A stretch of DNA of 59,253 nt, taken from the NCBI RefSeq assembly GCF_001447785.1, contig NW_015167097.1:151870-211122 (forward strand), written 5' to 3'. Of this stretch, positions 831 to 51,800 are shown one piece after another. The position numbers and the translations under genes are program-made. Each line of letters begins with the position of its first letter. Position 1 is the first letter of the stretch. Source of the stretch: Gekko japonicus (Eukaryota). The notes beneath the pieces are model-generated. The model had not been told where the DNA came from. It made no database searches and was given only the letters and a program-made list of their open reading frames with translations.

Positions 831-3656
831 TCTGTTCAACTACAGACAGTACCATAAGAAAGGTGTCTCCTCCAACTGGCTTGGAAATTGTTAATGTCAG
901 CCAGAGCCTACACAATTGAATTCCAGGGACATGCTGGGAGACTCTTTATATATACACCACATTCCTTGAGCTATATGTTGTGATCCAGACTGATAACCAG
1001 TGAATTCAGGTGACAAGAACTGAATATCCAAGATTAAGAAAACAGTGGTTGTACGTTAACCCAGGAAGTTTGATTACAAAAATCCCATTCAATCATTATT
1101 TAGTTGGGTTTATTATAACGATCACCAGCCATCTGGACCAGTCCTACCTTAAGGCAGAGTGAGGCTGCTACTTTAGGAAACAGATTTTGATCACCATGAA
1201 AAGGATAGCAAATTGCCACTAATATTTGTTAGTGTATATGTAGTCTTAAACTCTGTCCTGTAAAACATAACTATCATTTTGTGCTAGAAGATGATTGATA
1301 CATAAATGACTTTGTGTAGTTTGTCACACTAACAGTGCAGGGATATCCACGCAATATGAGTATCTGGGAGGAGAAACTGCACATTGTGGCCGGGAGGAAC
1401 CCATTTGTATTTTCTTCTGCGGGCATTAAAAGGAAGGCCCTGACTTCTGTGGGTCAACAGGCAGCATTGGGGATGTTTAAAACTTCTAGTAGAGCACCCA
1501 AAAATAGACCTTTAGGTTTGTTCGTTGTCTACTGAGCTGTGAACCATGGTAAACTGCCTAGACCAATCCATTCTGCACCGATCAGCTGATGATACAAAGT
1601 GATGATGGGTCAGCTGAGAAAAGAAGAAAGTACTTTAGGCATTAGTCATTTCAACATGCTTGTATATGAACTATTATATTGCCAGGGAAATTCTTTTTCT
1701 GGTGGCTGCAAAATTGAATCATTTTGTAGTATTTGGCCTAACAGGTGTTTAGTCTCCACTCATAGATTTTGATGGCATGTGGTTAAACCACTTCCTTCTG
1801 AGGCATGCAATATTTCACTCTCCCTTCAAAATGCTGTGATATAAGTTGATCCAGGACACAGATTAGTCACTAGTAATAGAAAATCTTGCAAGTAAAGCTG
1901 TCGGTTTAATGAGCTCTGTCCATCCTGAACCAAGCAAAAGCTTGGCTTCTATTTTTCATTGTCTCCCAAGGAGTTCTTTCTCACAGGGTATACATTTTTA
2001 GAGGACTATTAGACAGCATTAGACAACAATCTTATTTTTTAACCTTAGGTTTCCACATTACAACACTTTAAAAAAATTATAGACCATTACCTTGGCATAT
2101 AGAACATTACCTCAGCAATTATTTAGAAAAGGGAGATTTGGATCAGAGTTCATCTGATGCTTTAGAATTATAATGACACAGTAGAAATAAAACCACAGGA
2201 AAACCTCACCACATTCTCCCCTAGCTTCCAAGCCATGCTTCATTTTTGCTCCTTCTTTGATGGACCACCACTTCAAACCTTAGCATCACTGACTGGTTTA
2301 GCAATTTGTTCCAAATATCATATGGCAAGTTTCTGAAGCTTTAGATGTGTAGTGGCATTTGCTTCTTGTCTTAAGGGGGAGGACGGGACAAGAGTAGAAC
2401 ACGAGGATCCAATTGTCTGATAAACAGAAACATCTGTTGGAGTTATGAATGGTTGATTAGTGGAGTTCATTTCCAGGGTACGGCTTCAGTGGAACTCTCT
2501 TGTTTCTGAATTTTGCATGTGTCAGCAGTTCCCAAATGGTGGGTCAAGACTCACAGCCAGCTCATGAGAGCCTTGTGGCTGAATCACTGGGTTGTTGGCA
2601 GTGTAGGGTCAGTGGAAAGGCTTCACAAAGGTAACTGAGAAGTGCATCATGGGATATAGACTCTTATTTTCCTAGGATAGCATTTAATTCCTTAGCTCCT
2701 AGTTCGTTTACCCCAATTCTCTTTACAATCTTCTTGAATTATGTCCATTTCTTTTGTCAACAAATTGCATCCTGGCTTTTGTCTTTGTGTCACCTTTTTA
2801 TGCCTTTGGGGGCTGGTTGCTTTTTCTTCTGACCTACTGGGACAGATATGACCATATACATGACTTGAGCCAAGATGTGTGTGTGTGAAATAAGCATACA
2901 CGTTGATCATGTTGAGCTCACAGTGAAATCTTCAGTTGCTGTGCAAGTCTGGCGTCATGCAAACTTCCCAATGGAGTGGAAGAAATGTGTTTAGACCCCC
3001 ACCCTGCTCTGGAACAGCCAGGCCAGACACCCTAACAGCCAGTCATTATCCTGGCTCTTGACAGCTAAATAACAACTTCAGTATCCCAATTACAAAACAA
3101 AAAGCCCACCAAATGAGGACACCTTTTTGCATTTGAGAAGAACTCTGCATAATTAACTAGGCTGCAGCTCTAATTTGTTTTTACAGACTGGGTTTCAGTC
3201 ATCTGCAATCACCCAGCGTTTTCTGAGTTTTGAGCAACCATACATGTATTTTTTCTGGCATTCTGCATGCTAAGGGAGGGGGCATGCTTCAATGGGAGAG
3301 CAACTGGAAAAGAAAGAATTTCTAGCTGGAAACTGAACAAATTTTCTACTCGTTACTTAAGAATTCTTTCGTGAACAATGAAGAACTTTGCATGGTTTTA
3401 GATTAAGCTGATAGAACAAAAGCAAACTATAAAACTGTAGATTAGAATTTTAAATGGTAGGAGTAGAACATTTTACACACAGTGCCGTGTATTGGAGCTA
3501 TTTGTCCCTGGCTTTCTGTAACTCAGAATCACTATGCAAGGAAGATGTCCTCCAACATCTAATCATGAGATGTGAAATCCAGCTCTTCTTCTTTCAGTTG
3601 TGGTTGACACTCACTCATGCTTTCAAGACCATAGGACTAGGAAAGTTGGTTCCATA

Positions 3657-4249
3657 TAGGCTTCCAAAGATCCCACTTGGGGTGGGGAATCCTCTGCCCC
3701 CTAGGCTTGCCACTCCCCAGGTTGGGGCGGGGTTTTCCCCAGGGCTTCTCCCCACCCCCAAACAGCCACATCTCCATGTGACTTCTTTGACGTGATGAGA
3801 CCACCTGGAAGTGACATCATGCTGGAGATGTCACGTAGGGATGCTCTGGTTTAAGGACAAAACGTTATGGTTTTAAGCTGGCATTACCATAGAGATTTGC
3901 CCTTAGACCAGCGTGTACCGCCTGACTTTCAGGTGACATCATCACATCTGGGACATCCCAGAATGCCCCCCAAATTCCCCCACCAGAGCGACAAGGAGAC
4001 TTGGCAACCCTACTGCCCCCAATGGACCCTCCCCACTGCTGCTCAGTTGGGTGATGGGAGAAAAATAAAGAAGAAAATGAGGGGACGGTCAATGTCCCCC
4101 CATGTAAGTGGAAGTGACATCAGCCTGTCACTGGATACATTCTAGCATTCAGGCACAACCATATATGGTCATTATGTTTCTGGCGAGGGCCCCCACTGCC
4201 CCCCTCACTGAGTCTCCCGCCAGTTGCCAGCCTTATGCTGGCAAGCCTA
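3657..4249. mobile_element. hAT-type MITE (outer element) hosting a nested hAT MITE
   Basis: Termini TAGGCTTCCA...TGGCAAGCCTA; flanked by near-identical 8-bp TSD GTTCCATA (3649-3656) / GTTTCATA (4250-4257). Confidence 0.7.
3702..4012. mobile_element. hAT-type MITE (inner, nested)
   Basis: TIRs TAGGCTTGCCA...TGGCAACCCTA; perfect 8-bp TSD CTGCCCCC at 3694-3701 and 4013-4020. Confidence 0.85.
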
Positions 4250-4315
4250 GTTTCATATGTGGAGCATGGAGCTGAACATGAAAGCCTGGAGCACTGCACG
4301 GTGAGCAAGAGACTT

Positions 4316-4528
4316 GGGGTTGCTAACTCCAGGTTGGGAAATTCCTGGAGATTTGCGGGTGGGGGCTGGGGGTGGTGGGGCTTGGGGAGGAGAGGGATGT
4401 CAGTGGGGTACAATGCCATACAGCCCACCCTCCAAAGCAGCCATTTTCTGCAGGGGAGCAGATTTCTGTCATCTGGAGATCCATTATAATTCCAGTAGAT
4501 CTCCAGGCCTTACATGGACATTGGCAGC
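4316..4528. mobile_element. hAT-type MITE (TAGGGTTGCCA family), degenerate
   Basis: Same body as copies at 13433-13889, 14760-15078 and 53236-53668 (gggaaattcctggagatttg...ccaccctccaaagcagccattttct). Confidence 0.65.
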
Positions 4529-4595
4529 TTTAGCAGATATTCTGAAACAAAAGTAAATCATGTGCCTATAACATTGTGCCTAGTGGTTAAATATC

Positions 4596-4951
4596 TGTCA
4601 GACTCCTGCAGCAATCAGTTCCCAACAACTTTTATTCAAAGAAGTAAAAATTTATTGAGACATTGAGAGTATGCAGATATCTTAACTACTTTGTGTTAGA
4701 ACTGGGTAAAAGCACGTGAAGCAAGCAGATATACATTATTCAAGGGGGTCCCCTGGTGGTGTCGAGCCAATCAGGTAACAGGTAAGAGCCAACCAAAGTA
4801 ATGGGCTGCATTTCCCAAGAGAAAGACTACACTAGGCACTCAATGTCAGACATAAGTCGCAGAGATAATAAAACCAGTGAATGCACAGCAGAATCGAAAG
4901 CAGACATTCCAGAGTCACCCCAGCCAGGACTTCACAGAGACCTAGCTGACA
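4596..4951 (-). mobile_element. Solo LTR (Gypsy/ERV-type), 356 bp
   Basis: TGTCAG...CTGACA terminal inverted repeat; perfect 5-bp TSD ATATC at 4591-4595 and 4952-4956; AATAAA on the minus strand near the left end (tttatt ~4631 and ~4651). Confidence 0.8.
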
Positions 4952-8024: not shown

Positions 8025-8364
8025 TTTAGCTCAAGTGGTTAAGACGCTGAACTGCAGGCTGTGGAAGGTCAGTAGATCAACAGTTTGGGACCCAAGTGTG
8101 CCGCATGACGGAGTGAGGGCCTGTCTCTAGTTCCAGCTCCTGCCAACCTAGCAATTCAAAAGCAAGAAATTGCAAGTAGATAAATAGGTACCACTTCAGT
8201 GGGAAGGTAACAGTGTTCCGTGCGCCTTGGTGTTTAGTCATGCCGGCCACATGACCACAGAAATGTCTTTGGACAGCGCTGGCTCTTTGGCTTTGAAACG
8301 GAGATGAGCACCGCAACCCCAGAGTCGGATTCTGCTGGCTTTCGAGCAAGGGAACCTTTACCTT
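8025..8364 (+). mobile_element. Sauria SINE
   Basis: tRNA-like head (gctcaagtggttaagacgctgaactgc), conserved body and ACCTTT-type tail (ggaacctttacctt); reverse complement of the copy at 48531-48873. Confidence 0.85.
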
Positions 8365-9754
8365 ATGTCACTATAGCACTATGGTGATATACCTACTTAT
8401 AGATTTTAGCAGTAGGTATGTCACTATAACACTATGGTGATATACCTACTTCTAGATTTTTAAGACAGCAAAAAAGCCCCATGGCAGCATAGTGGTGGGG
8501 GAAAGGTAGGTGTAAGAAAATGTGGTGGGAAAACCAGAGAATCATGTAGTGTGAATGCCCAGTTGCTTCTGTGAATGCAAGGAGTCCACAGTTGGGAAGC
8601 AGCTCTAAGTCAACCAGAAACAGAAGTCTGACCATGCTTCCCCATGAAATGTTGACCCAGAACATGCCCCATGACTTTGGACTCTTTCCAAAGGAATATC
8701 ACATTGTGGTTCACCAAGGTCCATTGCTGTCTTGCTCTTTTCTTCATATAAGAATAGTTTGTTAAACAGCTGCATGGCCCTGTTGGCTAATATGCAATTT
8801 CCTGGGACTATTCTGCATGATTTTAACACATATGAATCAGGCCAATGTCATAATTCACAGCAGAGACCAAGAATTTAGTAATAAGGGTCCAGTTCATATT
8901 GCAAATTTCTCCCTAAGATTATATACACAGAGAAAACTGTAGCCTTAACAATGAAATTGTCATGACACTCTGCACTTACAGTGCAATCCTTAGTACACAT
9001 TGCTGCATACTTGTATAACGATCACAGGTGGTCATCTGCCATGTGAAGCAGCCCAAAGAACTGAACATCTGTGCTAATAAAAAGAATACCCAAAGCTAGA
9101 TAGGTAAATGAATATGCCTACAAATAGAGAATAGCTCTTGTGGGTCTTCCAGAAGTATTGTTCTTTGTATACTTTCAGGCCACCTGGAGAGATCTATGAA
9201 ACACAGGTGCTGCCAGAGCACCTTTGGAAACTTTATACCTGGTGGCAACTCACCCGCCAGCTAGATTACAACACACTGGAGCATGATCTCACAGGCAGGA
9301 ACAGATCTCTCCCACTCTCCCTTGCTACATTTCTCAATAGGAAATGAAAAATTAAGCCTCTAGGTTGATGGCTCCACTAGAGAAGCCATTCAAAGAAACC
9401 ATGCTACATTTTGAGGAATGGCTGCCAGAAAGGACCAAGACATTACAATGAAAGGATAAAAAGAGATTTCTTTGTCTCACTTTTTTTCTTAACTCTGAGA
9501 ACCAGGAAGATAGGAATTATTTGATCCTTTTTCAGCCCTCTTCCATTGCCAGCCCTGCCATGTGTTCATGCATGTTCCTTGATTATGATGAGACAAAAAT
9601 GGAAAACATCACTAGGTCAGAGATGTGCCACTGCTCCTGGGACATGTGGGTGGTATTCAGAATGTTCTCTGAAGGCATTTCTGAACTAGATGGGGCTCTA
9701 TCACACTGATGCATTTTGTGCCTCACAAAATTCTAGGTCACACAGGAAGGATCA

Positions 9755-11575: not shown

Positions 11576-11809
11576 AAGGTAAAGGTAAAGCTTCCCTTGC
11601 TCGAAAGCCAGTCGAATCTGATTATAGGGTTGCGGTGCTCATCTCCGTTTCAAAGCCGAAGAGCCAGCGCTGTCCAAAGACGTTTCCGTGGTCATGTGGC
11701 CAGCATGACTAAACACCAAGGCGCATGGAACGCTGTTACCTTTCCACCGAAGTGGTACCTATTTATCTACTTGCAATTTCTTGCTTTCGAACTGCTAGGT
11801 TGGCAGGAG
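11576..11809 (-). mobile_element. 5'-truncated Sauria SINE
   Basis: (AAAGGT)n tail on + strand; body matches other copies; 10-bp TSD GTCTTTCTTA at 11566-11575 and 11810-11819. Confidence 0.9.
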
Positions 11810-15078: not shown

Positions 15079-15563
15079 GGTAGTGACCAAGAGTATCTTT
15101 TATCAGCTCCATCTAGTTAATCAGTTCTCTCCTGATTCATGCTTTTGTAACCTTGTGGTTGGATTACTATGTGGTGCCTTTGAAGACAACCTAAAAACTG
15201 CAGCTGATTAAGAATGCAGCAGTGGCTAGCCGAGAGGAATGTATCTTGCCAATCTGATTTGACGCCAATACATGCCCTTTAAAACCCTTCATAGCCTAGG
15301 ACCCATATAAGTCTACTATATGTCTACTACAACAGACAAAACCCCCGGGGGGGGGACTCAACCCAAGATGTGGCTGTGATATATGAGGGTCAAGCTAACA
15401 AAATAAGTTATTATAAAAATACAAATATTTATTATGGTGTACACATAAGTAAAAGATAAAATAGGTTAAAAGAAATGATCCAAATATCAGACTCTTAAAT
15501 CTTTTTACTCACAGAGGTGAAAGTTTTACATATACAATTGATGGGTATATCTTATGACCAGTA

Positions 15564-15605
15564 GACCAGACACATTTCGGCCCCTTAGGGCCTTCCTCAG
15601 TGGTC
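15564..15605 (-). ncRNA. Minimal type I hammerhead ribozyme motif
   Basis: Minus strand reads GACCA-CUGAGGA-A-GGCCC-UAAG-GGGCC-GAAA-UGU-GUC-UGGUC: stem I GACCA/UGGUC, catalytic CUGANGA, 5-bp stem II, GAAA, vestigial stem III, GUC cleavage triplet (C at 15569). Confidence 0.75.
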
Positions 15606-15830
15606 AATATTACTATTGTAAAACAACACACATCCAGAAATAAATATATGCACAAAGAATTTCTTTAGAGCCAAATGTTGCTTTTTGGAATTGTCAAAAG
15701 GGAGAGAAAAAAGCCAAATTATTACATATCAATGGCACATAATAAATGCACATAATAGTAAATTTTAAAATACCAGCATTTTTTTGCTGTTGTTATCCCA
15801 TGTGATGTGCAATTGCTAAAAGTTTACATA

Positions 15831-16343
15831 GGCCCCAGTCACAGGGGCCAGATAACGCAGGGGGGAGGCGTGGCTGTTTGCCCTGGAGAACAATAAAGCG
15901 CGGTAGCCCAATCACACGGTCCCCTGAGTCTCTGTGCCTAGGCTGTTAGCTGGCGATCACACAGCGATGCTGCAGCGTGGCAAAGAAGCGGCGCAGCACA
16001 ATCACACAAGCGTTTCGGTGCAGTGCCACGGAGCAGCACTGCTTTCAGTTTCATGTTTGCGCGCATGTGCTTAAGAAAAACATCCGGTTTGCAACGGGAC
16101 GTGGACAGGCGGCAGATGCCACAGGATACTAGTGCTCCCGCGATTAGATGCCCGCCTATGCCACGCATTTCCCGGATACTAGTGCACTTTCCTTGGTACT
16201 TTTTAACTCCGCACCTTCGATGGGACGCCACGGGTTGGCCACGGGTGCGCTACGCTTCCCAGATGTTGCGGTGTGATCACGCCCTGAAAAGCCGCCCAAC
16301 ATTCATGCCTTTCGCGCAGCAAATTCTCCATGTGACCGGGGCC
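15831..16343. mobile_element. Complete Harbinger/PIF-like MITE (513 bp)
   Basis: TIRs GGCCCCAGTCACA...TGTGACCGGGGCC; 3-bp TSD ATA on both sides; CpG-rich; related copies at 1-198 and 35766-36290. Confidence 0.75.
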
Positions 16344-19300
16344 ATAGTAGGCCATGGATAATCTCTCATGGTAACTGCACATGCTCACCAAATTGTTCTA
16401 CATCAAAGTGGAAATTATATAATTGTTAGAATTTATAAATAGTACAGTTATACAAACAATTTTTAGCCATAGAGTATTTAGCTATAGAGGACAATATCAC
16501 CCCAATGAAAGGATTTATACCATCTTCGGAGACCATCTTGTTTGTATGGAGCACTTTATTCTTGTTTTGTTGTTATTTAATGGTTTTACTGTTTTATCCT
16601 GTTTTTATGTATGGGCTTGTGCCCTCTTGTAAGCCACCCTGAGCCCGTTCGCGGGGAGGGCGGGGTAAAAATGTTAACAATAAAAAAATAAATAATAAAT
16701 TACCCAACCAATCTGGTAACAAATATCCAATGTGTCTGGATGTGTGTCTCTTCCATCAACAGTAGTAATCAAGTTGCATACGGCTAATGTTACATCAATA
16801 TATAGTAGGACCCAGGAATGATGCAACCACCCACATGCATTGCATAATACTGTTGCCAAGGGAGGGATTTTTTTATATTCCATAGTGGGTAGGGGGTAAG
16901 GAGGGGAGAGAAAGCAAAAAGAAGGGGGGGGGAAATCACAAGGTCAGCACTACCAAATACAGAATGACAGGTATACATTTTCTCAAAAGCAGCAGGTCCA
17001 GTCAAACTGGCTCTCAGTACAATATAGTACAATAACGGCAAACCACCCTGATCTATGTTATAGAAAAGTAGGTCTTGTTCATATGGACACCTCTATGACA
17101 GAAATTCAACAGAAGCATGAAGATACAGCGAAGGAAAGGATTGTTCAACTATGAACTGATGAACTGCATCATGCCTCTTCCGCAGTGTATTTTTATGTCA
17201 GATAAAGTGTCTTTGAGACATTTTTTATGTATGTTGTTAACAGAACCAAAAGTGAAGAGAGCCATTTTAAAATAAATTGTTCAGTTTTAGCCAATGAGAG
17301 TTGGATGAAGTTTTACAGAGGAAAGGTAATGCAACATTAAAGCAGCATTTGCATGTTTCTTGTGAAAGCAACACCCATATAACACTGCCACCCCACCACC
17401 AATTTGGGGCAATTTTGCAGTGTCTTACAATTGCCATGGGCAGGGAAGAGGGAGTGTAGGTGACAAGAAGCCTGGGTGTCAATGTGAGGTTCACATTTAG
17501 ATGTGGAGACTTGTAGCTCTACTGGTGCCCTGGCTGGGCTGAGGTGGACTACTGCAAGCTTGTTGCAATCACTGCTGAGGACAAGGGAGGCTGTTAACCC
17601 TGACATGCTCATTCCCACACCCACGTCTTTAGAGGAAGACTTTTACCTTTAATCTGCAGCACTCTTTTAAGGCAAAGTGAAAATCTCCAGCTTTGTTGAT
17701 CTTGCTTCCAGGGAGGGCTTTGTTTGGCTGACAGACTTGCGAAATACTGCTGCTGTTAGCCAAGGTACTAAAAAGGGGGGTTGCTGACACAGCAATTTGG
17801 AGGAAGCTGGAGGAAGCTGGCTGTAGATACCCAATTTCTGTGGACCAAAGCGAGGGACTTTTGCTAACTGCTGGTAGCATGAGGGAGTTTAGCCGTTACA
17901 GCAAATACACGTACATCCTGCCTGTATGTGTGCACATCGGTTTGTGAGCAAGAAAAATGCATGTTCACCTTATAGATGAAACTGGGGACCATTACCTGGG
18001 TAAATGTGGGGGTTTGTATTATGCATTCAGCTGTACATGTGTTGACTGTAACATGAGAATTGCTCAACACACATGCAAAGAACAATCAAGTGTAACTGTA
18101 TGTGTATTCACTGCAACTTGTGAACAGGGCTACTGGTAGCTTGGAAACTGTACAAATATAATGAAGGAGCTAGTTGAGGGTGAAGTCTTGCTAGGGGGGA
18201 TTGTGTTCTGGTTTCTTTATTTCTAATTACAGTAACTTCTGCTAGTCCCATACATGTCAATGATGTGACAACTTGACTGGGTCAAGTTAAAAGTTCTGTC
18301 AGGTTAAATGCACATGAATGTGTTGTGGGGGAACTTAGCACTGGTTCTTCTTGTACCTTTATTTAAAAAGCTATGATATAAATGTATACGTGTAATATGT
18401 CATTCACATATTAAAAATCAAGTGAAGTGAAAGGCCTCTGCTTGAGACCCTGGAGCGCTGCTGCCAGTCTGAATAGACAATACTGACCTTGATTCAATGT
18501 AAGACAGCTTCATGTGTGTTGAATAATGATTTTTACAAACTTTTTTTTAAGTCCCAAGACTACTCTGGGCATTTTGGTGTATTTTACTCATGGGCACCAT
18601 TCAATAATTTTTGGCAACAAACAGTCCTAAACTGCAACAGTGGCCATGTTTTAGTTCCAGTTCCATGTTTTAGGGCAAAACTCAAAGAACAACACTGCAA
18701 CATGCAACTGGTTTCATTTATCAGTCATTGAATGAATTATTAATAAACAAAGGACTTGATATCCTATGGGCCATTGAAGTCAATGGCGAAAACATAGGGT
18801 ATATTCTGGGGGCTGGAGGAGAGGGGGTTTGAGGGAAAGGCCCCGAAATCGCAGGGTAGCTGCTGGAGCCTCTCCCCAAGATACCCGCCATGTTTCAGGA
18901 ACATTGAACCAGGGAGTCCAATTCTACGGGCCCCCAAACAGGTTGCCCCCATCCCCTCGCCTCCTTCCCTCCTGCCTGCTATGGCTGCATAATTGTGAGA
19001 GATTTCTTAACATAGTGTTCCTGCCAGGGAAGCTGGGGACCCTGCCCATGAGTCTCCATTTCATCCTCACAACAACCCTGTGGGGTAGGTTAGGTAGAGA
19101 AGGGGAGATTTGGCCCGGGGTCACTCAGCCAGCAGAGTGAGAATACAAACCTGGGTCTCCCCACATCAATCTGCAACTCTGACCACTGTGCAGTGCTGCC
19201 TCTACTGATCTGTAATGTTCCAGAGGTGTTGTAATGTAATACTCAGTTTCTCAAACGAGTGTATGCCTGTCTGTTGGTCCACTTAGGAGTCTTGATCCTG

Positions 19301-20597: not shown

Positions 20598-22093
20598 GTC
20601 AAGTCAAGTGAGCCTTTATTGGCATAAATTATCAGAACCATTTATACATTTTAAAACCAGTTAAAAGCACATATATAAGAATTCTAAAAGAACCTTTGGC
20701 GCAGCTTTAAAGCCAAACAGAGAAACTTAGCCACCTTCTCAGTAATATCCAGGCAGAGATCTCTTAAAAGTCTGTTCACCTTAAGAGCATCAGAACAAAC
20801 ACCCATACTGGTTAAAAGAGATTGTAAATATGTGATCCTTATGTCCATGTACAGGTTACAATGCAGGAGAACATGAGTGATAGATTCCATGCATTTCTTT
20901 CTGCATGGGCAGTATCTGGCCAGCTGAGGAACCTTATTGAATCTGCCAAATAAGATGGCGGACGGCATGACATTGCATCTGGCCAGGGTGAACACTCTAC
21001 GTTGTTGAGGGACCTGCAGGGAGGATAAATACGTAGCCATCATCCCTGTTGTAAGGAGAATCTCAAAATTCAAGGGGGAGCAGGTTTTATTAGCTAAACT
21101 ATATAAATTTTGGCGCTCCGAGTCTAACAATCTGTTTTTAATCTGTTGGAATGCAGCCGCAAAAGGCAACATGGACAGGGATTCCAAAGAGAGACCCAAT
21201 ACTTTGATTTNNNNNNNNNNTGGTCAAAAGCTCTAATCCAGATTGGAATGCCGTACAATAACTGGGAGCTCACTTTGGACCTAAAAATTTTGGTTGCAGC
21301 TGGCACAAATTGGTTGCCCCTGCGGTAAAAGAAACGTACTATGGCCGATGCACTAGCACTGGCAAGCTTCACCGCATGTTTGCGATGGGTAGACCACATT
21401 GCATTATATTGAAAATGAATGCCTAAATATTTGTATTCTTTGACTTGCTCTATTACTTTACCATTGATGGACCAATGGTATAATCTCCACTTTTTGGAGA
21501 ACACCAGGATTTTGGATTTATCATAGTTAAGCTGAAGCTTGTAGTTGGTAAAGAAAGCAATACAGCGAGACAACAAACGTCTCAGCCCAACTTTAGAGTG
21601 GGGTAACAACACTGTGTCATCAGCATAGAGTAATACAGGAACATGTGTTTTCCCCAGTTTGGGACTGTGACAATCAGAATCAGAGAGCTGGGCCGCAAGA
21701 TCGTTAAGAAAGATGTTGAATAGAAAGGTTTGAATAGAAAGATTGTTTGTGGCAATCTTAGGTGTCAGATTGCCTAATGGTGAGCATTTGATCTGACATG
21801 TATTGAGAGTATAAAGTTGTTTGATAAGTAAAAGGAGTCTCTTGTCCAAATTTAACTGGTCAAGTTTGGACCAAAGGAGGTCCCTGTCAACTGAATCAAA
21901 TGCCCCCTTGAGGTCCAGAAAGGCTACAAAAAGTTTCTGGTTGCTCCGTACAGTATGGATGTCAACAAGGTGGGATAAAGTGATACAATGATCTAAGGTG
22001 GTCTTCCCTTTACAGAACCCCAGCTGTTCGGGTCCTAAAAAATTTTCTTGTAACATCCAAGAGTTGAGCTTAACCAATAGGTGTTTGGAATAT
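20598..22093 (-). mobile_element. 5'-truncated non-LTR retrotransposon (RTE-X/L2-like LINE) with reverse transcriptase domain
   Basis: ORF 21124-22077 has RT motifs (EQLGFCKG, FVAFLDLKGAFDSV, LLYADD, YKYLG); ORF 20684-21199 has a C-terminal CPC...ESITHVLLHC motif; AATAAA plus (ACTTG)n tail; 16-bp TSD AATGTTTTAAATTATA at 20582-20597 and 22094-22109. Clade assignment uncertain. Confidence 0.88.
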
Positions 22094-22239
22094 AATGTTT
22101 TAAATTATACATGACAATCACTCTTCCCAGGGGAAAAGGTGACTTGCAAACATATAACAGTGTTGCAGCAGCAGCAAATTACAAATAGGTTTGCCTTGGA
22201 GTGCCAACATTACCTCCATGCTATCTACTGAGACTGAAC

Positions 22240-23909: not shown

Positions 23910-24885
23910 ACCCCATTTATTTATAGTTTTACCATCTTAACAACATTACTTAACGAATCATCATTACATATTTGTGAGTCACTATTACGTCGTGTTTTTC
24001 AGCCATACATACATTTTGTTCCATCTTTTTTCAAATAGACCTTGGTCTTTCCCTTGTAACATTAAGCTTAACCTGTCCATTTCTGCCATTGACAATAATT
24101 TTTCTATCAGTTCCTCCTTTGAGGGTATGTTGTCTGTTTTCCAACATTTAGCTAACATTATCCTTGCCGCAGTAAATATATATGTTGTTACATATACATT
24201 TTCTTTATTAACTGTTTCTGGGAGTATATTCAATAAACATATTTCTGGTAAAACTGGTATTTCTATTCCTATGATACCTTTTACTATATATATTTTATGC
24301 CAGTATTTTTGCATGCTTTCACACCTCCACCACATATGCAAGAACGTACCTACGGGTTTTTTTACATTTCGAACAATTTCTATTTGTTGTCGCATATCAT
24401 TTTGCTATTCTATCAGGTGTCCAGTGCCACCTGTGGAACATTTTATGTATGTTCTCTTTATATGGTATTGCTCTCATCAGTTTAACTGTATTCCTAATTT
24501 TGGACCATTGATCTATCTCCAAAAGTGTGTTCTAGGTCTTTCATCCAGGCCACCATAACCCCTTTTACTGTTTCATCTTGTAGACAGTCAGATAATAAGA
24601 AAGTATATAGCGTTTGTATACGTTTATCGCTTGAGGAGAGTCATATCTTGCCTAAATCATTATTATTGCTATAGAATCCTATTTTTCTATCCTTTATAAA
24701 TCTTGTCTTTAATTGAGCATTTTCTCGCCACGTAAGCCTAATATTCTGATCTGTCGGTTCTTCTGCTGTTCTTAGTCTATTATTTCTGTCTAAGAGCTTT
24801 TCATAAGTCACTCTGTTGTTATTATCAGTTAGCGACAGCATAATAAGAGCTTCCAAAGGTAATACCCATTTCGGAGTTCTAAGGT
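23910..24885 (-). mobile_element. L1-clade LINE ORF2 3' fragment, frameshifted
   Basis: GTFLHMWWRC zinc-knuckle remnant and AARIMLAKCWK motif in ORF 23985-24395; continuation in 24641-24925. Confidence 0.8.
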
Positions 24886-24888
24886 AGT

Positions 24889-25210
24889 AGCCAGTCGAAT
24901 CCGACTCTAGGGTTGCGGTGCTCATCTCCGTTTCAAAGCCGAAGAGCCAGCGCTGTCCGAAGACGTTTCCGTGGTCATGTGGCCGGCATGACTAAACACC
25001 AAGGCGCACGGAACGCTGTTACCTTCCCACCGGAGTGGTACCTATTTATCTACTTGCAATTTCTTGCTTTCGAAATGCTAGGTTGGCAGGAGCTGGAACC
25101 AGAGACGGGAGCTCACTCCGTCATGCGGCACCCGGGTCTCTAACTGCTGAACTACAGACCTTCCACAGCCTGCAGTTCAGCGTCTTAACCACTTGAGCCA
25201 CCGCAGCTCC
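24889..25210 (-). mobile_element. Sauria SINE lacking its 3' tail
   Basis: Near-identical to the 48531-48873 copy, but missing the ~25 nt containing the ACCTTT tail. Confidence 0.85.
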
Positions 25211-26183
25211 TAAGGNNNNNNNNNNNNNNNNNNNNNNNNNNNNNNNNNNNNNNNNNNNNNNNNNNNNNNNNNNNNNNNNNNNNNNNNNNNNNNNNNNNNN
25301 NNNNNNNNNNNNNNNNNNNNNNNNNNNNNNNNNNNNNNNNNNNNNNNNNNNNNNNNNNNNNNNNNNNNNNNNNNNNNNNNNNNNNNNNNNNNNNNNNNNN
25401 NNNNNNNNNNNNNNNNNNNNNNNNNNNNNNNNNNNNNNNNNNNNNNNNNNNNNNNNNNNNNNNNNNNNNNNNNNNNNNNNNNNNNNNNNNNNNNNNNNNN
25501 NNNNNNNNNNNNNNNNNNNNNNNNNNNNNNNNNNNNNNNNNNNNNNNNNNNNNNNNNNNNNNNNNNNNNNNNNNNNNNNNNNNNNNNNNNNNNNNNNNNN
25601 NNNNNNNNNNNNNNNNNNNNNNNNNNNNNNNNNNNNNNNNNNNNNNNNNNNNNNNNNNNNNNNNNNNNNNNNNNNNNNNNNNNNNNNNNNNNNNNNNNNN
25701 NNNNNNNNNNNNNNNNNNNNNNNNNNNNNNNNNNNNNNNNNNNNNNNNNNNNNNNNNNNNNNNNNNNNNNNNNNNNNNNNNNNNNNNNNNNNNNNNNNNN
25801 NNNNNNNNNNNNNNNNNNNNNNNNNNNNNNNNNNNNNNNNNNNNNNNNNNNNNNNNNNNNNNNNNNNNNNNNNNNNNNNNNNNNNNNNNNNNNNNNNNNN
25901 NNNNNNNNNNNNNNNNNNNNNNNNNNNNNNNNNNNNNNNNNNNNNNNNNNNNNNNNNNNNNNNNNNNNNNNNNNNNNNNNNNNNNNNNNNNNNNNNNNNN
26001 NNNNNNNNNNNNNNNNNNNNNNNNNNNNNNNNNNNNNNNNNNNNNNNNNNNNNNNNNNNNNNNNNNNNNNNNNNNNNNNNNNNNNNCATGGCCCTTAGTT
26101 TGCAAGACCTGAGCAAGGCTGTTAGGATGTTTTGGAGGACATTAGTTCATCTGGTTGCCATAGGTCAGAAGTGACTTGACAGT

Positions 26184-35480: not shown

Positions 35481-35765
35481 TATTGTATTGCTCCCAACAT
35501 AATTGTCAGGTCTCTTCACAAACTACATTTTGAAATACTTGGGAATTTGACTGTGAATCCCCCCTCCATGTTGTGTGTACCCTCTCTGGAAAATATTTCC
35601 TAAATTCTAAAAGAACTTTCTGTTGGCCGCAGAGAGAGCTCCACCTTCTTCCAGAGCACTGGGTGGGAAAAAATGCCTGATGTGGCCAGCATAAGTACAG
35701 TGCCAACAGAAGGTGGGTTGTTCTCCCAAGGTACAATCTGAAAAGGCCCCAAATTACCACACTAA

Positions 35766-36290
35766 GGCCCCGGTCACACAGGCCGGAAAACGCGGGGGTG
35801 GGAGCATGGCTGTTTGCCCTGGAGCAAAGTAAAGCGTGGCAGCCCGATCACACATCCTGTCGAGTTCCCGTGGTTAGGCTGTTAGGTGCTGATCACACGG
35901 CTATCCTGAAGCGCAGCAAAGAAGCGGCGTGGCGCGATCACACCAGCAATCGCTAGGCGCCACTTCTGTGGCAAATGGGAATTTTCCCCCCCTCACCGAC
36001 GTTTGCACATGCACCGTTGGGTGTTTGTGCGCATCCTGTGGAGACTAAAAAAAATCCAGTTTGCGACGGGACATGGACAGATGCCGAATACCATGGGATT
36101 CAAGCGGAAACGCGATCAGACGCCCGCCCTTGCCCTGCAGTTTCCGGAAACTAGTGCGCTTTCTGCAGTAGTTTTTCACTCCGCATCTTCGGTGGGAAGC
36201 CACGGGTGCACTACGCTTCCCAGATGTTGCGGTGTGACCGTGCACCGAAAATCCGCCTGTCATTCGTGTCTTTAGTGCGGCAACTTCTCC
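35766..36290. mobile_element. Harbinger/PIF-like MITE, right end degenerate
   Basis: TAA|GGCCCCGGTCACACAG left TIR; colinear with 15831-16343. Confidence 0.7.
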
Positions 36291-37080: not shown

Positions 37081-37810
37081 GCCTCTAGCATATGTCAATT
37101 TCTCCTACAATGTTAAAGCCATTCTTCAGGCATCAGAATCTTCAGATGTTGGAGGGGGTCTCCCCGTTCTTTTACTGCTAGGCTCAGGTCTTCCTTCAGA
37201 CCTCAGGGGGGTTGTGCCTGGGTTTCGGTCCCCCAGGGTCTTTCTTTTCCAACTATAATTCTTCCCAGCCAACATTTTGCCCTCCCTGATATGCCAGATT
37301 TGTCTTAGAGGAGGCAAGAGCCACCAAAAGGGGGCTCAGAAATGGACCCCATCATAATTTGGCGGTCTCACGTTTTCCTACATGAATGTTTAGTTTCCGC
37401 GCAACAATGATCTCAATCATAATCAGCATGAATGAGTGGTTTTACAAAGGAATCTCATGGAGATTTTCAACACGAACAGGCTACTTAAAGTAAACAGAAA
37501 GGAAGAATATGGGAAACATATTAAGTGTGTCCAGGCACAAAGCATTGCTTCTTTACTACACTGGCATTAAGCTGTTTTGGAAATTAAGTTATTTTTAGCA
37601 CAAATTTGGTTTTTGTTTTTTATTTTCCATCTTTCATACTCTGCCCATCTGCCAGAACTATCTAGGCTGCATTTCTGAAATGTTTCACATTATATTGTGT
37701 CCATCCAAATGTAGGAATGATTTTCACCTTTTTCAGAAGGAAATAGTTTTTTAGATAAACAACTTTCCTTCTATGGAAGTACAGCATTGTACCAGAGGTA
37801 GGGAGAAAGT

Positions 37811-39014
37811 CCTATCTGGCAGACTGGAAAACCATTGAGAATATAGGGTTCCACCCTAAATCGCTGGAGGAAGTGTTATGGATGCCGCCGTCATCCCGCC
37901 CCAGAAGATCAGGATACAGTGAGCTTCTACAGGCATCTCTTGGGGCTTGGGACCGACTTAGAACTTATCTGGTCTCTCCATCTTCACCACTGCAGACGTT
38001 TTTGGGCCAGAGCTGGTTTTGCCCAGGGGAAGATCCCTCGGCTTATCGCTGCTGGAGGAAGCAGGGCCTTACCAGATTTTGTGACATCATGGCCAGAGGC
38101 TGCCTACATAGTCAACAAGAAATAGAACGTAAGTTACAGGGACAGGTATCCTGGTTTGAATATGAACAAGTTAAACACTTAGTGTGTCATGACTCGCATA
38201 CCCCTTTGCCGGATACGATTTTGCGCCTGTTTGAAGATCTTATGGCGGCTCAGATCTTACCTAATAGGGGATTGGTGTCAAAAGTGTACTGTCTTCTTAA
38301 TTCTCAACATAAAGAAGAACAGACTGGATATCAAACAAAATGGCATAGAGATATTGGTCAGTCGCTTACCTCCGAACAGTGGACTGCGATCTGGTCTTCT
38401 CCTCTTTGCCGCTCCCGTTCCACCAATATTCAAATGTTAACTTATAAACTTTTATTTCGATGGTACCTGACCCCGCATCAGCTGCATGGCATTAACCCCG
38501 CGATCTCGGACAGATGTTGGAAAAATTGTGGGGGCCGTGGCACCTATATTCATTGCTGGTGGGAGTGTCCCAAGGTCCAGGCCTTCTGGAGAGAAGTCAA
38601 TGCCCAAATACTTTTAATTACAGGTTGCGCCCTCCAACTACAACCCTCCTTGTTCCTTTTGAATCATTGGAGCCATCCTGCCCCCAATGGGCTTATGAAA
38701 GAGTTGATAGAATTGTGTCTTGCGGCCGCTAGGAATGTTATTGCATTTCATTGGAAATCCAAGAAGACGCTGCTACTGAGTGACTGGTTCCTGAAACTGT
38801 GGGACTTCTTTTTACAGGACAAAGTTTCCACTAGCATCCTACGATCCGAAAATCAACCCGTTCCTGACAATCTTCAAGAAAAATGGATGCCCCTCTTGGA
38901 AGCCTCAGCAGCACATAAAATCGACACCTCCCTGTTTGCCCTGCATAAACACCAGGACTTGCTTTCCTATTTTTAACTGTTTTTTATATTTAATAAAAAA
39001 AAATTAAAAAAAAA
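37811..39014 (+). mobile_element. Young 5'-truncated L1-clade LINE
   Basis: Uninterrupted ORF2 C-terminal frame (open from ~37813 to the stop at 38976) with CWKNC...HCWWEC zinc knuckle and AARNVIAFHWK; AATAAA and poly(A) tail; 15-bp TSD AGGTAGGGAGAAAGT at 37796-37810 and 39015-39029. Confidence 0.92.
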
Positions 39015-42814: not shown

Positions 42815-43756
42815 ATGACTGCAAAGATGGAACCTACTTTTTATGATGATGCCATAAATGCTACCTTTGTACAGCCGGAAAGTGGTACTTATGGATATAA
42901 CAATCCCAAAGTTCTGAAGCAGAGTATGACTCTGAATCTGGCTGACCCTGCCAGCAACCTCAAGCCCCACCTGAGGAACAAGAATGCTGACATCCTAACC
43001 TCCCCAGATGTAGGCCTCCTCAAGCTGGCGTCTCCAGAACTAGAAAGGCTGATCATCCAGTCTGGCAATGGCCTGATCACCACCACTCCTACCCCGACCC
43101 AATTCCTCTGTCCCAAAAATGTCACCGATGAGCAAGAAGGGTTTGCAGAAGGCTTTGTCAGGGCACTTGCAGAACTACACAACCAAAACACCATGCCAAG
43201 TGTTACTTCTGCTGCCCAGCCTGTTAACACCGGCATGGCCCCTGTCTCATCAATGGCTGGAAACAGTGGCTTCACTGCTAGTTTGCACAGTGAGCCTCCA
43301 GTCTATGCCAACCTCAGCAATTTCAATCCAAATACCCTCAGTGCAGCACCTAACTACAATGCAAACAACCTGGGCTATCCTCCTCAGCACCTAAACCCCC
43401 AGATGCCAGTGCAGCATCCCCGCCTTCAAGCGCTGAAAGAAGAACCTCAGACCGTCCCTGAGATGCCTGGGGAGACTCCTCCCTTGTCCCCTATTGACAT
43501 GGAATCCCAGGAGAGGATCAAGGCAGAGAGGAAGCGCATGAGAAACCGAATTGCAGCCTCCAAGTGTCGGAAAAGGAAATTGGAACGGATTGCCAGGTTG
43601 GAAGAAAAAGTGAAAACTTTGAAAGCGCAAAACTCGGAACTGGCATCTACTGCCAATATGCTGCGAGAGCAGGTTGCTCAGCTGAAGCAGAAAGTCATGA
43701 ATCATGTCAACAGTGGGTGCCAGCTAATGTTAACACAGCAGTTGCAAACTTTTTGA
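42815..43756 (+). CDS. JUN: Transcription factor Jun (c-Jun, AP-1 subunit), 313 aa, intronless CDS
   Basis: [12 protein letters not shown] start; delta/JNK-docking [11 protein letters not shown]; S63 (LTSPDVG), S73 (LASPELE) and T91/T93 (TTTPTPT) at human-equivalent numbering; FBXW7 degron [10 protein letters not shown]; basic region [20 protein letters not shown]; leucine zipper; C-terminal [13 protein letters not shown]. Confidence 0.99.
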
Positions 43757-47632: not shown

Positions 47633-48530
47633 GAAAAAAAAAGTGTAGGGTTAATACACCCATTTATGTTCCCTGTTATGGGGGTAGCTATTTGGCAACC
47701 TGTAGGCTATATTACAGCACTGTCAGCCAACAGAAGTGACATGTCCAACAACTGACCAAATAAAATTGCACTTATTTTAGAATAAATGGAAAAGTAGCTT
47801 ATTGGCAAAAGAATCAAAAGCAACTGTTAAAAGAAATGTTACTAGTAGCTGTCATATTTTATTATGGAATTCTGGATAGCTGACTTCAAATGCCATCATT
47901 GTGTCCTAATAGCAAACTTGATGGTCTATTGCCTACCAATAGGGCAGCAAAATGAGGCCACCCTCAGATCAGGCATGCTTAAAAGGCTCCCCCAATATAC
48001 AGAAAAGCAGTAAATAAATCCACCAGCATGGCAACACCAGAAAATGGCCTTATTAATTCCAAACACCCTTCCAGGAGAGTAGCTAGGCATCACTTGAAAA
48101 CAGCTGGCATAGGAGAGGGTACGTTGGTATACTCAAGGCTGTTGGGGGTTTCAGTATTCTGAAGGTTGCAGGGCATTCACACATGACCCAGAGGGAAGGG
48201 GAGAAACAATATTTTCCTCTCTGCACTGTACTGCTCAGGTTGGAGGCTAAGTGAGCAGCTTTTTGTTGTCAACATTTTTGATAGGGGGGAAGAAAGAATG
48301 AAAAGACTAACGGGAGGGGAGAACTTGGCCTGCTAAGGCTCATAAGCATTTGAAGTGAAGAATTAGGGCAAGGGGGATGTGTGTTCCCTACTGCTGTGCT
48401 ACTCCAGGCCAAATCTATGAAGCTGTCTCATGCTACTCAGGCTACTGGTCCACCTAACTCAGTGTTGTTTTCTTCAACTGACACTGGTATTCTTGAGCAG
48501 AGGACAATTAAGATCCTCTAATTAGGGGTA

Positions 48531-48873
48531 AGGTAAAGGTTCCCTTGCTCGAAAGCCAGTCGATTCTGACTCTAGGGTTGCGGTGCTCATCTCCGTTTCA
48601 AAGCCGAAGAGCCAGCACTGTCCGAAGACGTTTCCGTGGTCATGTGGCTGGCATGACTAAACACCAAGTCGCACGGAACGCTGTTACCTTCCCACCAAAG
48701 TGGTACCTATTTATCTACTTGCAGTTTCTTGCTTTCGAACTGCTAGGTTGGCAGGAGCTGGAACTAGAGACGGGAGCTCACCCCGTCTTGCGGCACCCGG
48801 GTCTCGAACTGCTGAACTACCGACCTTCCACAGCCTGCAGTTCAGCGTCTTAACCACTTGAGCCACCGCAGCG
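48531..48873 (-). mobile_element. Full-length Sauria SINE inserted into an older tRNA-SINE
   Basis: (AAGGT) tail, complete head; 16-bp TSD CCTCTAATTAGGGGTA at 48515-48530 and 48874-48889. Confidence 0.92.
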
Positions 48874-51800
48874 CCTCTAATTAGGGGTACTGGGAACTGA
48901 ATCTGGGACTTTTCCCATAGAAAGCAGGTACTCTGCTACTGATCCATAACCCCAAAAGGTTGGGTTTTTTTTAAAGGCTTTCAAGAAAGGTGTTTTGAAT
49001 CCATTCTCCCTTTAGTGATTAGAATGCTCCAAGGGGAGTAAAGCCACCCCCCTCAGACTGACATAGCCTGAGGATGCTTTACATTTTTAAAGACTCTGTT
49101 AACTTTGAAACTAAAAGTGTCCTGACGGGGGAGATTAATCAAGACCAGGGGAAAACCACCCACCTCTCAACTCTTGAAGCTGCAAACAGGGCACAGCCCC
49201 TAATGGTTTACAGAATCCTGACATGGAAAGGAGGTGAAATGTGGGTTAGGGGTACATGCGGTGAGGTGTGCACTTCCAAACCCCACTTCCCACCTAAATC
49301 TCCACAGCACAGCAATTGGTAAAAATACCCCCTTTTGTGCTGTTTGGCTTATCTCGCACAAACCTCAGCCATCAGGGCAGTTTCTCTACTGCTGAGCTGC
49401 AAGGCTTGGTGACTCACTGATTTACTGAGCTCAAATCTTGTATTACAGACAGGAATTTCATTTATTTATTACATTATTTATAGTCTGCCTTTCTCACTGG
49501 CACTCAAGACGGAGTACACAGAGTGAGTCAATACAATCAACCAGATGGGACTGCCAATAAACAATGCAATAGGATTAGGATTATAGCAATCTGGAACCAA
49601 GCAAAAATCTTTTTTTAAAAAGAGATGAAGCAAAGTGTAAGTATTAACATGACACATTAAACAATGCAAAAATTATGTAGCAGGATCCTACTTTCAGCAA
49701 GCTATACACACTAGTAGAAATCACTGTCCCTAATCACTTATCCAAGCAACTTTCTGAACAATTTTGTTACAGTGGAGCCCAATTAACTGTGTAATTACCT
49801 ATCACCTCAGCTTGCACAGTTCCCCATCATCAGAAAATGTGATTGATACATTTGGTTTACACCACCAATAGTACACAGACTATAGGAAAGGTGCTTGTAG
49901 TATAGCTAGAAAATATGCAGCAAAGTGTATGTTTTCTTTTTAGTGTGTAGCATTTATGGGACAGGGCACATTCTTCTTCCAGTCTAATAAGTAGACGAAG
50001 GGTTTGGAAGAGGTCAGGTGTAGGTTTCTGTTCCACTCTCTCCAGAAACTGATCAAGCCTCCTCAGGAAGACCTGCCTTGTTTTTTATGAACTCTTTGCT
50101 TAAGGGAGTTTCTTTAACGATCCCCCTACCCTGGGAAGCCATCTAGATCCCAAGATTCTCCATACCCTGAAGGGAGTTTCCACCAGTCAGAAACAAATCC
50201 TTTAAAACTCACAGCAGAGGTCTTGTCATCATTTCTATATTCCAGGAAACTGGTTCCTTTCTGACCCACTGCGCAAAGTGAATTCTAACAGGTAGGAATG
50301 TACTGAGCATTCCACACTACTGCCTTCTTCCAAGTAGTACGACATTAGTACAGGGGGAAGGGCAGCTGCTCTTCTCCTGGACATTCCTGTGTTGCTGACT
50401 GGGCAGAGGCCATGTGCGAGTGTTTGGATATATGTAATCCTTGGCAACTCCATTTAAATAGTAGGACTTACCACAGTGGTATCCTGCTTTTCCACCAAGA
50501 AGTTCAGAACAGCATGTATGAAATTATCTTGCTTTTATCCTCAAAACCCTGTGAGGTATGAATGCCTGGGAGATAATAACTTTTCCAAAATAGGTTAAGA
50601 GGGGATTTGAACGCTGGTCTAAGTCCAGTATCTCAGTCACCACTCAGTTTTGTCACCTGAAGCCTTAGAGAACTGTTGCCAGTCAGAATGCATAGAAGGT
50701 TTAGTATGTCTAAGGCAACCCCGTATTTTGTTTTTAATTTTTATTTTAATTAGGAATGTGGGCAGCTGCCATCTGGATGTGCTATGAAAGCCAGCACTGA
50801 CGCACATGGGCTGTTTTGGGGTGTTATGTTTACACTCGTGGTGTATCAGTGGAAAGTTTATCATGGTGACAGAGTTCCACCAATCATTTAGGTTTCATTA
50901 ATTTTTCAGAAATCATAAACTGGTGGTGAATTTTGTGAGAATTTAAAAATGGGAACGAAAGCGTGAAAGTATTGTGCATTTGGAAAGATGGTGAAACCCT
51001 TGGATATATTTTGATACACTTCACCACCACCAAGGAAGGAAGTAGGAGTGATAGTGAGACATCTAGCTTCAGGTTTCTACTTCTTGCTGCTCTACATGAC
51101 TGAAAATATCAGGAGCTAGAGAAAGGGTTGGCCAGGGAGGGCTGTTGTGCCTCATGCCGCCCTCTGCCTGCTCTGTGCCCCCCCCTTTTTCTGTTTCCCT
51201 TTACATTGATTCTCTAACCATAGATTACACAATCATATCTCCAGTTCAGGCAGTAAACAATAGGGAGAAGAATAATGAATGGCAGCCATGTATTTATTTA
51301 GTCAAAAGCAAGAATGTTATACCGGCCTTGTAGTGTTGCTTTATACTTGTTGTTTATACTTTCTCCGAATGTTAGAAAGGGATTTTTTTTAAAAAAGTTG
51401 TTGATCTAGCTAGCTGACATTAAGGAAATGTTTCGCAAAGTATCACATTGTTATTATGTATTCTATTCTTCTACAATTATTGCCAGTAGATCAAGAAAGT
51501 GACATTAAACAAACAAAAAATAAAATAAATGAGCTTGAATAGGACAGGCTACATGGAAACATTACCTGATTAGTGAATGCTGCAGTCAGACCTAATATTG
51601 GTGAGATTTTCAAATCAGGAACAGTACATCTGCTCCTGGCCCTTGGCTACAAGTTGTATAAACCCTGGTGGTCTCTGAATGCATTGGCATTGCTCCAGCC
51701 TCAGGGCTGAACTCTCCTTCACTTAGTGATATTGACTGCTGCTGTCACTGCATGATCAGCTGTTTGGCTGCTAGAGTGATTTGCTGTTAAACAGCTGCTT

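What the first reader, a model, noticed from the sequence alone, without database searches (positions are those of the whole stretch)
15564..15605. Hidden minimal hammerhead ribozyme on the minus strand, probably from a Penelope-like element
Seen: the minus strand reads GACCA CUGAGGA A GGCCC UAAG GGGCC GAAA UGU GUC UGGUC. Every conserved hammerhead core nucleotide is in the correct order, with a closing stem I, a 5-bp stem II and a GUC cleavage triplet. Established: minimal type I hammerheads with a tiny palindromic stem III occur in Penelope-like element pLTRs and retrozymes, and cleave efficiently as dimers. Inference: stem III here (AUGUGU) looks like the palindrome ACGCGU after two CpG-to-TpG decays, leaving only G-U wobbles. 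This copy may be weakened, but it points to a ribozyme-bearing retroelement family (possibly producing circular RNA) in this lizard genome. The ORF track does not show it.
Basis: partly seen in the sequence, partly recalled or inferred. Interest (0 to 1): 0.75.

Follow-up and report, generated by a model that had tools for sequence, protein, structure and literature searches.

The report
Decayed Penelope-type hammerhead ribozyme relic
This is a real but mutated copy of a small self-cutting RNA motif inside a very abundant repeat family, likely the tail end of a Penelope-type jumping gene; this copy is predicted to have lost its activity, and such motifs are already known from reptiles.

Summary
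The motif is real: an intact minimal type I hammerhead core with 5-bp stems I and II at 15605-15564 (minus strand), the only one in the window, with 0 equivalents in 12 Mb of simulated sequence. Public runs laid on it show a dispersed repeat family, over 2,000-fold deeper than the single-copy flank, with a sharp end at 15347; it continues past a MITE to at least about 16375. One correction: the family's position 17 is U or A (98%); GUC is peculiar to this copy. The decayed helix III is predicted not to pair with itself (+4.2 versus -7.5 kcal/mol) and no partner ribozyme lies in the window, so this copy is likely dead. No Penelope RT or GIY-YIG remnant was found nearby, so Penelope membership is inferred from ribozyme type and family shape, not shown. 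Minimal hammerheads in Penelope pLTRs, mostly as solo copies and including reptiles, were described in 2014, and an anole one has been assayed. New member of a known kind; low interest.

The parts
15564..15605 (-). Minimal type I hammerhead motif: 5-bp stem I, intact core, extra A between positions 9 and 10.1, 5-bp stem II with G10.1-C11.1, decayed 6-nt helix III; predicted cut 15569/15568
   Evidence: Sequence; descriptor scan; covariance model hit 26.5 bits, E 5e-05 (model partly circular)
15570..15575 (-). Helix III hexamer, AUGUGU here, ACGCGU in the family; the changed letters are at 15574 and 15572
   Evidence: table 3: + strand A>G at 15572 in 31212 of 37956 depth (X1) and 4184 of 5562 (X6); at 15574 in 31636 of 39328 and 4155 of 5752
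15569..15569 (-). Position 17: C in this copy, U or A in the family
   Evidence: table 3: G>A 21097 plus G>T 19382 of 41139 depth (X1); 2693 plus 2997 of 5958 (X6); 67 of 78 reads (X22)
15347..15830 (-). First segment of the repeat element (likely pLTR / 3' end of a Penelope-like element), 32% GC, 1 CpG left; sharp end at 15347, 217 nt past stem I
   Evidence: depth 71.5-139 on flank bins against up to 269,403 (X1); loose ends at 15347 in 27 (X1) and 19 (X6) contigs with unrelated A-rich flanks; composition
15428..15433 (-). AATAAA inside a second high-depth block (15407-15452), a possible poly(A) signal about 135 nt past the cut site (inferred)
   Evidence: Sequence; depth 215,928-223,582 in X1
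15831..16343 (.). Later insertion interrupting the element: terminal-inverted-repeat (MITE-like) element with an ATA duplication on both sides
   Evidence: Ends read; 69% identical copy at 35765-36290; family contigs skip it (table 7)
16347..16375 (-). Continuation of the repeat element beyond the MITE; its far boundary was not determined
   Evidence: table 7: loose ends after 15828 (9 contigs, X1) and 15831 (9 contigs, X6) match the window from 16347 on

Best explanation
This is a mutated hammerhead ribozyme motif in one dispersed copy of a high-copy repeat family, likely the 5'-truncated terminal repeat (pLTR) of a Penelope-like retrotransposon, and it is predicted to be inactive. Shown: intact core and stems; multi-copy family; family helix III ACGCGU; no second hammerhead in the window. 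Inferred mechanism of the family: two ribozymes in a tandem transcript pair their ACGCGU palindromes into a shared 6-bp helix III, probably helped by the element's protein, and cut after GUA or GUU to process the element's RNA. Inferred history of this copy: it was inserted by reverse transcription without its ORF, lost both CpGs of helix III on the sense strand by methyl-C deamination, gained C at position 17 by chance, and was later interrupted by a MITE. With four G-U wobbles and no partner it would not form the active dimer.
For: Family and sharp end at 15347, depth falling steeply on the 5' side (269,403 at 15591-15613; 16,173 at 15660-15682; 1,626-4,823 at 15683-15797 in X1). Family letters restore the palindrome in two organisms (table 3), and three loose-end consensuses show decay of the same CpGs on the other strand (CACG, CACA, CGCA in place of CGCG; table 7). 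Forced 6-bp self-duplex: -7.5 kcal/mol for ACGCGU, +4.2 for this copy; in the full dimer forming helix III costs 6.2 kcal/mol (-26.6 against -32.8). The motif fits the published metazoan PLE min-HHR consensus: CUGANGAH, extra nucleotide before 10.1, G10.1-C11.1, GAAA-palindrome-UH, 4-5-bp stem I; most such motifs are solo remnants of truncated PLEs (PMC4209133). In 1 of 80 metagenome loci examined (L069) a motif of the same class lies about 430 nt downstream of a GIY-YIG frame with a Zn-finger linker.
Against: No PLE RT or GIY-YIG remnant was detected in the window: Pfam 0 of 9 frames; profile of 120 proteins, best E 1.7, and tblastn best E 0.013 elsewhere, with only E 0.063 at 16478-16260; broader profiles from 86 proteins, nothing near the element; two single-frame database searches empty. 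These profiles come from distant relatives (one named, a sea cucumber), so a decayed reptile ORF could be missed. The depth gradient also reflects the 80% identity cut-off, and summed contig depth is no copy number. No partial tandem or inverted second copy at this locus. Inactivity rests on nearest-neighbour energies, not on an assay.
Confidence: 0.8

Rival explanations
1. The family is non-autonomous: an ORF-less hammerhead element (retrozyme-like or SINE-like derivative of a PLE pLTR) mobilised in trans, and this is a solo monomer of it.
For: No ORF remnant found. Non-LTR retrozymes related to PLE pLTRs are reported in 4 of 5 reptile genomes sampled, with units of 51-972 bp across families and many solo monomers (bioRxiv 10.64898/2026.07.22.740005). 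One X1 contig joins 15563 to 15477 across a diverged hammerhead-like stretch, which may be a short tandem (table 5c; kind of joint not shown).
Against: No tandem unit at this locus. None of the 15 joints shown (of 37) returns from the 15347 end to the element's other side, and the ends at 15347 run into unrelated flanks. The ribozyme is of the minimal PLE kind, not the canonical kind described for animal retrozymes (PMC7229834, passages).
Confidence: 0.14
2. A domesticated ribozyme that processes a host transcript upstream of JUN, like the few conserved amniote hammerheads.
For: Core and both stems are perfect in a copy that differs from family contigs at many other places; it has GUC, the triplet usually held to be most reactive (recalled). 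The insertion with its left junction is also present in organism A (one contig, 15200-15385, 4 other letters and 1 gap; table 8).
Against: The one part needed for dimer activity is broken. It is one of very many copies and was picked because it looked intact. The unique flank has no depth in organism C at 80% identity. It lies about 27 kb from the JUN start (42815) and no host gene was identified around it.
Confidence: 0.04
3. A chance match to the hammerhead pattern.
For: Rfam finds nothing here.
Against: 0 hits in 12 Mb of simulated sequence at this stringency; the motif is the deepest part of a repeat family whose consensus completes the palindrome.
Confidence: 0.01

Closest known systems
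[quoted passage not shown]
   Same: Type I topology, core, extra nucleotide before 10.1, G10.1-C11.1 pair, short stem I, palindromic helix III, C/U/A at position 17, AU-rich flanks, occurrence as many solo copies; reported there from fish, coelacanth, Xenopus, turtle and snakes.
   Different: The family's palindrome has 6 nt (the variant class with a small palindromic helix III) whereas the turtle and snake examples in their Fig. S3 have 4 nt; stems differ in sequence from every vertebrate row of that figure; this copy's palindrome is broken.
Hammerhead of the anole Poseidon element PAc (Frangieh et al. 2024, PMC11167929)
   Same: A lizard PLE pLTR hammerhead; cleavage in vitro needed the element's protein, was not needed for insertion, and no RNA-seq ends were seen at the cut site, as here for the family.
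   Different: In PAc the ORF starts inside stem II; here the only AUG at that place opens 7 codons and no ORF follows. I did not compare the PAc sequence itself.
Non-LTR retrozymes of animals (PMC7229834; bioRxiv 10.64898/2026.07.22.740005)
   Same: Type I hammerhead in a non-coding, low-GC repeat; dimer-dependent cleavage in vertebrates; related to PLE pLTRs.
   Different: Defined by head-to-tail units each with a hammerhead, and by circular RNA; no tandem at this locus and circular RNA untested.

Membership tests
PLE minimal hammerhead (min-HHR) | Core CUGANGA...GAAA...UH in type I order with closing stem I of 4-5 bp | tested here: met
PLE minimal hammerhead (min-HHR) | Extra nucleotide between 9 and 10.1 and a G10.1-C11.1 pair | tested here: met
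   A at 15593; G15592 pairs with C15579; feature list from PMC4209133
PLE minimal hammerhead (min-HHR) | Palindromic helix III, in the family | tested here: met
   C at both positions in 72-82% of depth in the two DNA runs
PLE minimal hammerhead (min-HHR) | Palindromic helix III, in this copy | tested here: not met
   AUGUGU; self-duplex +4.2 kcal/mol. Hence filed as a decayed copy of a family that meets it, not as a working ribozyme
PLE minimal hammerhead (min-HHR) | Large dispersed family of copies | tested here: met
   2133 contigs laid in X1, 1671 in X6; depth over 2,000-fold the flank in X1; 20 of 24 listed runs, labelled with 7 organisms, hold part of the stretch (only 4 runs, 2 organisms, were laid)
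PLE minimal hammerhead (min-HHR) | Self-cleavage as a dimer | not testable with these tools
   Energy estimates only
Penelope-like element (EN+) | ORF with telomerase-like RT and C-terminal GIY-YIG upstream of the pLTR | tested here: inconclusive
   None found; expected for a 5'-truncated copy, and the profiles are distant; longer family members could not be fetched (no genome held)
Penelope-like element (EN+) | Fixed 3' end with frequent 5' truncation | tested here: inconclusive
   Shared end at 15347 in 27 + 19 contigs and falling 5' depth, but confounded by the identity cut-off; 568 loose-end rows not shown
Penelope-like element (EN+) | Partial tandem or inverted second copy (often, not always, present) | tested here: not met
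   No second copy at this locus; solo copies are the common state
Penelope-like element (EN+) | Intron in the pLTR / 5' UTR | tested here: inconclusive
   A donor-like GTGAGT at 15512-15507 (minus) is not the family state (15509 differs in 28620 of 30486 depth, X1) and no matching joint is among the 15 of 37 shown
Penelope-like element (EN+) | Clade (Neptune, Poseidon, other) by RT phylogeny | not testable with these tools
   No RT sequence linked to this family
Non-LTR retrozyme | Head-to-tail units each holding a hammerhead | tested here: not met
   Single copy in the window; not excluded elsewhere in the genome
Non-LTR retrozyme | Abundant monomeric and circular RNA | not testable with these tools
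   The one raw RNA run laid is poly(A)-selected and from another organism
Conserved amniote intronic hammerheads | Few copies, locus conserved across distant species | tested here: not met
   High-copy family; flank not covered in organism C; family definition from a passage of PMC7229834 and recall

The most novel reading that the evidence does not exclude
The family is an ORF-less, hammerhead-bearing element that has spread to thousands of sites in these reptiles in two subfamilies (GUA and GUU), and its copies riding in host transcripts cut each other in trans: a decayed copy like this one would be rescued by pairing with an intact family RNA (predicted mixed helix III -3.8 kcal/mol), making a genome-wide, partner-dependent RNA cleavage network.
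Probability: 0.04. Interest if true: 0.6.

Novelty: new member of a known kind. Interest (0 to 1): 0.13.

Why it matters
Modestly. It adds one more reptile family of Penelope-type minimal hammerheads, one that Rfam does not detect, and gives a clean example of how they die: the CpG-rich dimerisation palindrome is the mutational weak point, decaying on either strand while the core stays readable. The family could supply intact and decayed natural variants for the open question of what pLTR hammerheads do, but this particular copy is a poor test object.

Tried and rejected
Genome-wide paralogue search: no genome is held for this window. Rfam: no hammerhead hit. Family-specific DNA patterns: 2 matches in viral contigs, both without the 5' core and unrelated; 0 for the element's end in viral contigs; 0 in prokaryote genomes. 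PLE ORF remnants: none. Second hammerhead at 17151-17194 (+): E 0.15, lacks GAAA, rejected. Inverted second copy at 16900-17400: looked marginal against shuffles (1, 6 and 12 of 300) but 23 of 222 GC-matched window tiles score as high, rejected. Tandem copy at 16925: not above shuffles. Intron in the tail: donor-like hexamer is private to this copy. Sigma-70 promoter/terminator scan: not relevant to a vertebrate. No RNA holder was listed as on record. RNA ends at the cut site: none piled up in X22 (table 6), but that library is fragmented poly(A) RNA of another organism with 0 of 261 reads at 99% identity, so it says nothing on this locus. Covariation in 17 metagenome motifs is partly circular, as they were chosen for stem I pairing and share the searched stem II. 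Host taxon could not be checked. Lunse et al. 2017 was not available.

Full report
Observation. The minus strand at 15605-15564 holds every conserved hammerhead core nucleotide in type I order, a 5-bp stem I, one extra A before a 5-bp stem II closed by G10.1-C11.1, a six-letter helix III region and U16.1-C17, with the predicted cut at 15569/15568. A loose descriptor finds only this site on either strand of the window. In 12 Mb simulated from an order-4 Markov model of the window there were 0 hits at the observed stringency, 1 at an intermediate and 8 at the loosest setting. A covariance model built from 17 metagenome motifs gives this site 26.5 bits (E 5e-05); the other 18 of 19 matches have E of 0.15 or more. 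That model is partly circular, because its members were found with a pattern taken from this motif's stem II. Rfam has no hammerhead match here.

Surroundings. The window is vertebrate DNA with a JUN gene at 42815-43756 on the plus strand, LINE fragments and many short repeats. That it is a lizard, probably a gecko, is my recall of the repeat types and was not tested (one search did not complete). No whole genome is held, so paralogues were sought in public sequencing runs: 20 of 24 listed runs, in 13 studies and labelled with 7 organisms, hold part of 15300-15830. I laid 4 of them, from 2 organisms, on 15200-15860 at 80% identity.

It is a repeat family. In DNA run X1 the unique flank bins have depth 71.5-139 and the ribozyme bin 269,403; 2133 contigs were laid in X1 and 1671 in X6. 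Summed contig depth is no copy number, but a ratio above 2,000 means very many copies. Loose ends pile at 15347 (27 contigs in X1, 19 in X6) and run into unrelated A-rich sequence (agreement 0.48), marking one end of the element 217 nt past stem I. On the other side depth falls to 16,173 at 15660-15682 and 1,626-4,823 at 15683-15797. Nine contigs in each DNA run continue from 15828-15831 directly into the sequence that the window has from 16347, so the element is interrupted by a 513-bp inverted-repeat element (15831-16343, ATA duplicated) and goes on beyond it for an unknown length. One X1 contig bridges the 15347 junction with 4 other letters and 1 gap in 186 bases, so organism A has the same insertion; the flank has no depth in organism C (all).

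The CpG-decay inference is right, the GUC is not typical. At 15572 and 15574 the family has G on the plus strand (C in the ribozyme) in 82% and 80% of depth in X1, 75% and 72% in X6, and 45 of 74 and 55 of 77 reads in X22. Three loose-end consensuses show the same two CpGs decayed on the other strand (CACG, CACA, CGCA), which points to CGCG as the source state. At position 17 the family has U or A in 98% (X1) and 95% (X6) of depth, in about equal shares, so C17 is a private change. Of the 40 variant rows shown (193 more are not shown), 4 places fall in the motif: position 17, the two helix III letters and one loop II letter; none falls in the core or stems, but the table is incomplete and no compensatory change within the family was seen. 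Among unrelated metagenome motifs, 55 of 119 pattern matches close a stem I after UH, and 44 of these 55 have a palindromic helix III, a feature not selected for.

How it works. Minimal hammerheads cannot form helix III alone; two copies pair their palindromes (PMC4209133; review PMC6765202, passages). A forced 6-bp self-duplex is -7.5 kcal/mol for the family hexamer, +4.2 for this copy's and -3.8 for the mixed pair; in the dimer of the 42-mer as found, forming helix III raises the energy from -32.8 to -26.6. There is no second hammerhead in 59 kb. This copy is therefore predicted inactive; that is computed, not assayed. For the family, cleavage of tandem transcripts after GUA or GUU is inferred from the published PLE ribozymes, whose activity is low in vitro and, for the anole element PAc, depends on the element's protein and is dispensable for insertion (PMC11167929).

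Expression. Poly(A) run X22 (organism C, about 20% read) gave 261 reads, 0 of them 99% alike, in both mate orientations, 84% running on into unlike sequence, with no pile of starts or ends. This fits family copies carried in other transcripts; it is no evidence about this locus or about cleavage.

Is it Penelope? The motif matches the published consensus of PLE min-HHRs point by point, most of which occur as solo remnants, and in 1 of the 80 metagenome loci long enough to examine a motif of this class lies downstream of a GIY-YIG frame. But no RT or GIY-YIG remnant was found beside this copy with Pfam (0 of 9 frames), profiles of 120 and of 86 PLE proteins or two single-frame searches (both happened to cover the same frame of the overlap), and there is no tandem or inverted partner. 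Membership is thus likely but not shown, and a non-autonomous pLTR derivative remains possible.

Comparison with print. Read: PMC4209133, main text parts 1-2 of 4 and supplement parts 1-2 of 3; PMC11167929, parts 1-2 of 4, supplements listed but not read, its GenBank file unreadable; bioRxiv 10.64898/2026.07.22.740005, parts 1 and 3 of 5 and passages, supplements closed, and they may list reptile families like this one; passages only of PMC8557442, PMC7229834, PMC6765202 and PMC6050309. Lunse et al. 2017 is known to me only through the review and recall. Six searches returned no paper on this particular family, and three motif terms were absent from the one supplement searched, but the library lacks most subscription journals and Repbase was not available. 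The kind itself is described for turtles, snakes and anoles.

Verdict. A correct catch of a real motif, with a correct guess about its decay; a likely dead solo copy of a known kind of ribozyme in a high-copy reptile repeat. New member of a known kind, interest 0.13.

Noticed in passing
window 42815-43756 (+): Intact intronless JUN (c-Jun) coding sequence, 313 aa; Pfam Jun and bZIP. The hammerhead lies about 27 kb upstream.
   Followed up: partly
window 15831-16343; 35765-36290; 2-200: Terminal-inverted-repeat element of about 510 bp, 57% GC with 37 CpGs, three copies or part-copies in the window at about 70% identity; likely a PIF/Harbinger-type MITE (class recalled).
   Followed up: partly
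window 15685-15798: Many family contigs join about 15684 to 15799, skipping some 114 bases that this copy and a minority of others have: length variants or subfamilies (table 5).
   Followed up: no
window 15477-15563: One X1 contig joins 15563 to 15477 across a diverged hammerhead-like stretch; it may be a short tandem of the ribozyme region elsewhere in that genome (table 5c).
   Followed up: no
window 20684-22104 (-): Reverse transcriptase fragment of a non-LTR element (Pfam RVT_1, E 8e-20), not matched by the PLE profiles.
   Followed up: partly
window 37759-38976 (+) and 23985-24404 (-): Open frames of 405 and 139 aa that look like the C-terminal part of LINE ORF2 (recalled; no Pfam match at E 0.001).
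   Followed up: no
window 8029-8365, 11582-11809, 24889-25211, 48529-48876: A young short repeat, four copies 91-96% identical, probably a SINE.
   Followed up: no
window 17151-17194 (+): CUGAUGA followed by a 4-bp stem but without GAAA; covariance model E 0.15; taken as chance.
   Followed up: yes
L069 724-1849 (-): Penelope-like endonuclease frame with Zn-finger linker and one stop, about 430 nt upstream of a minimal hammerhead, in a metagenome contig.
   Followed up: partly
L060 1373-1633; L099: Two loci each hold a pair of near-identical hammerhead motifs on opposite strands a few hundred bases apart, the inverted arrangement described for PLE insertions.
   Followed up: no
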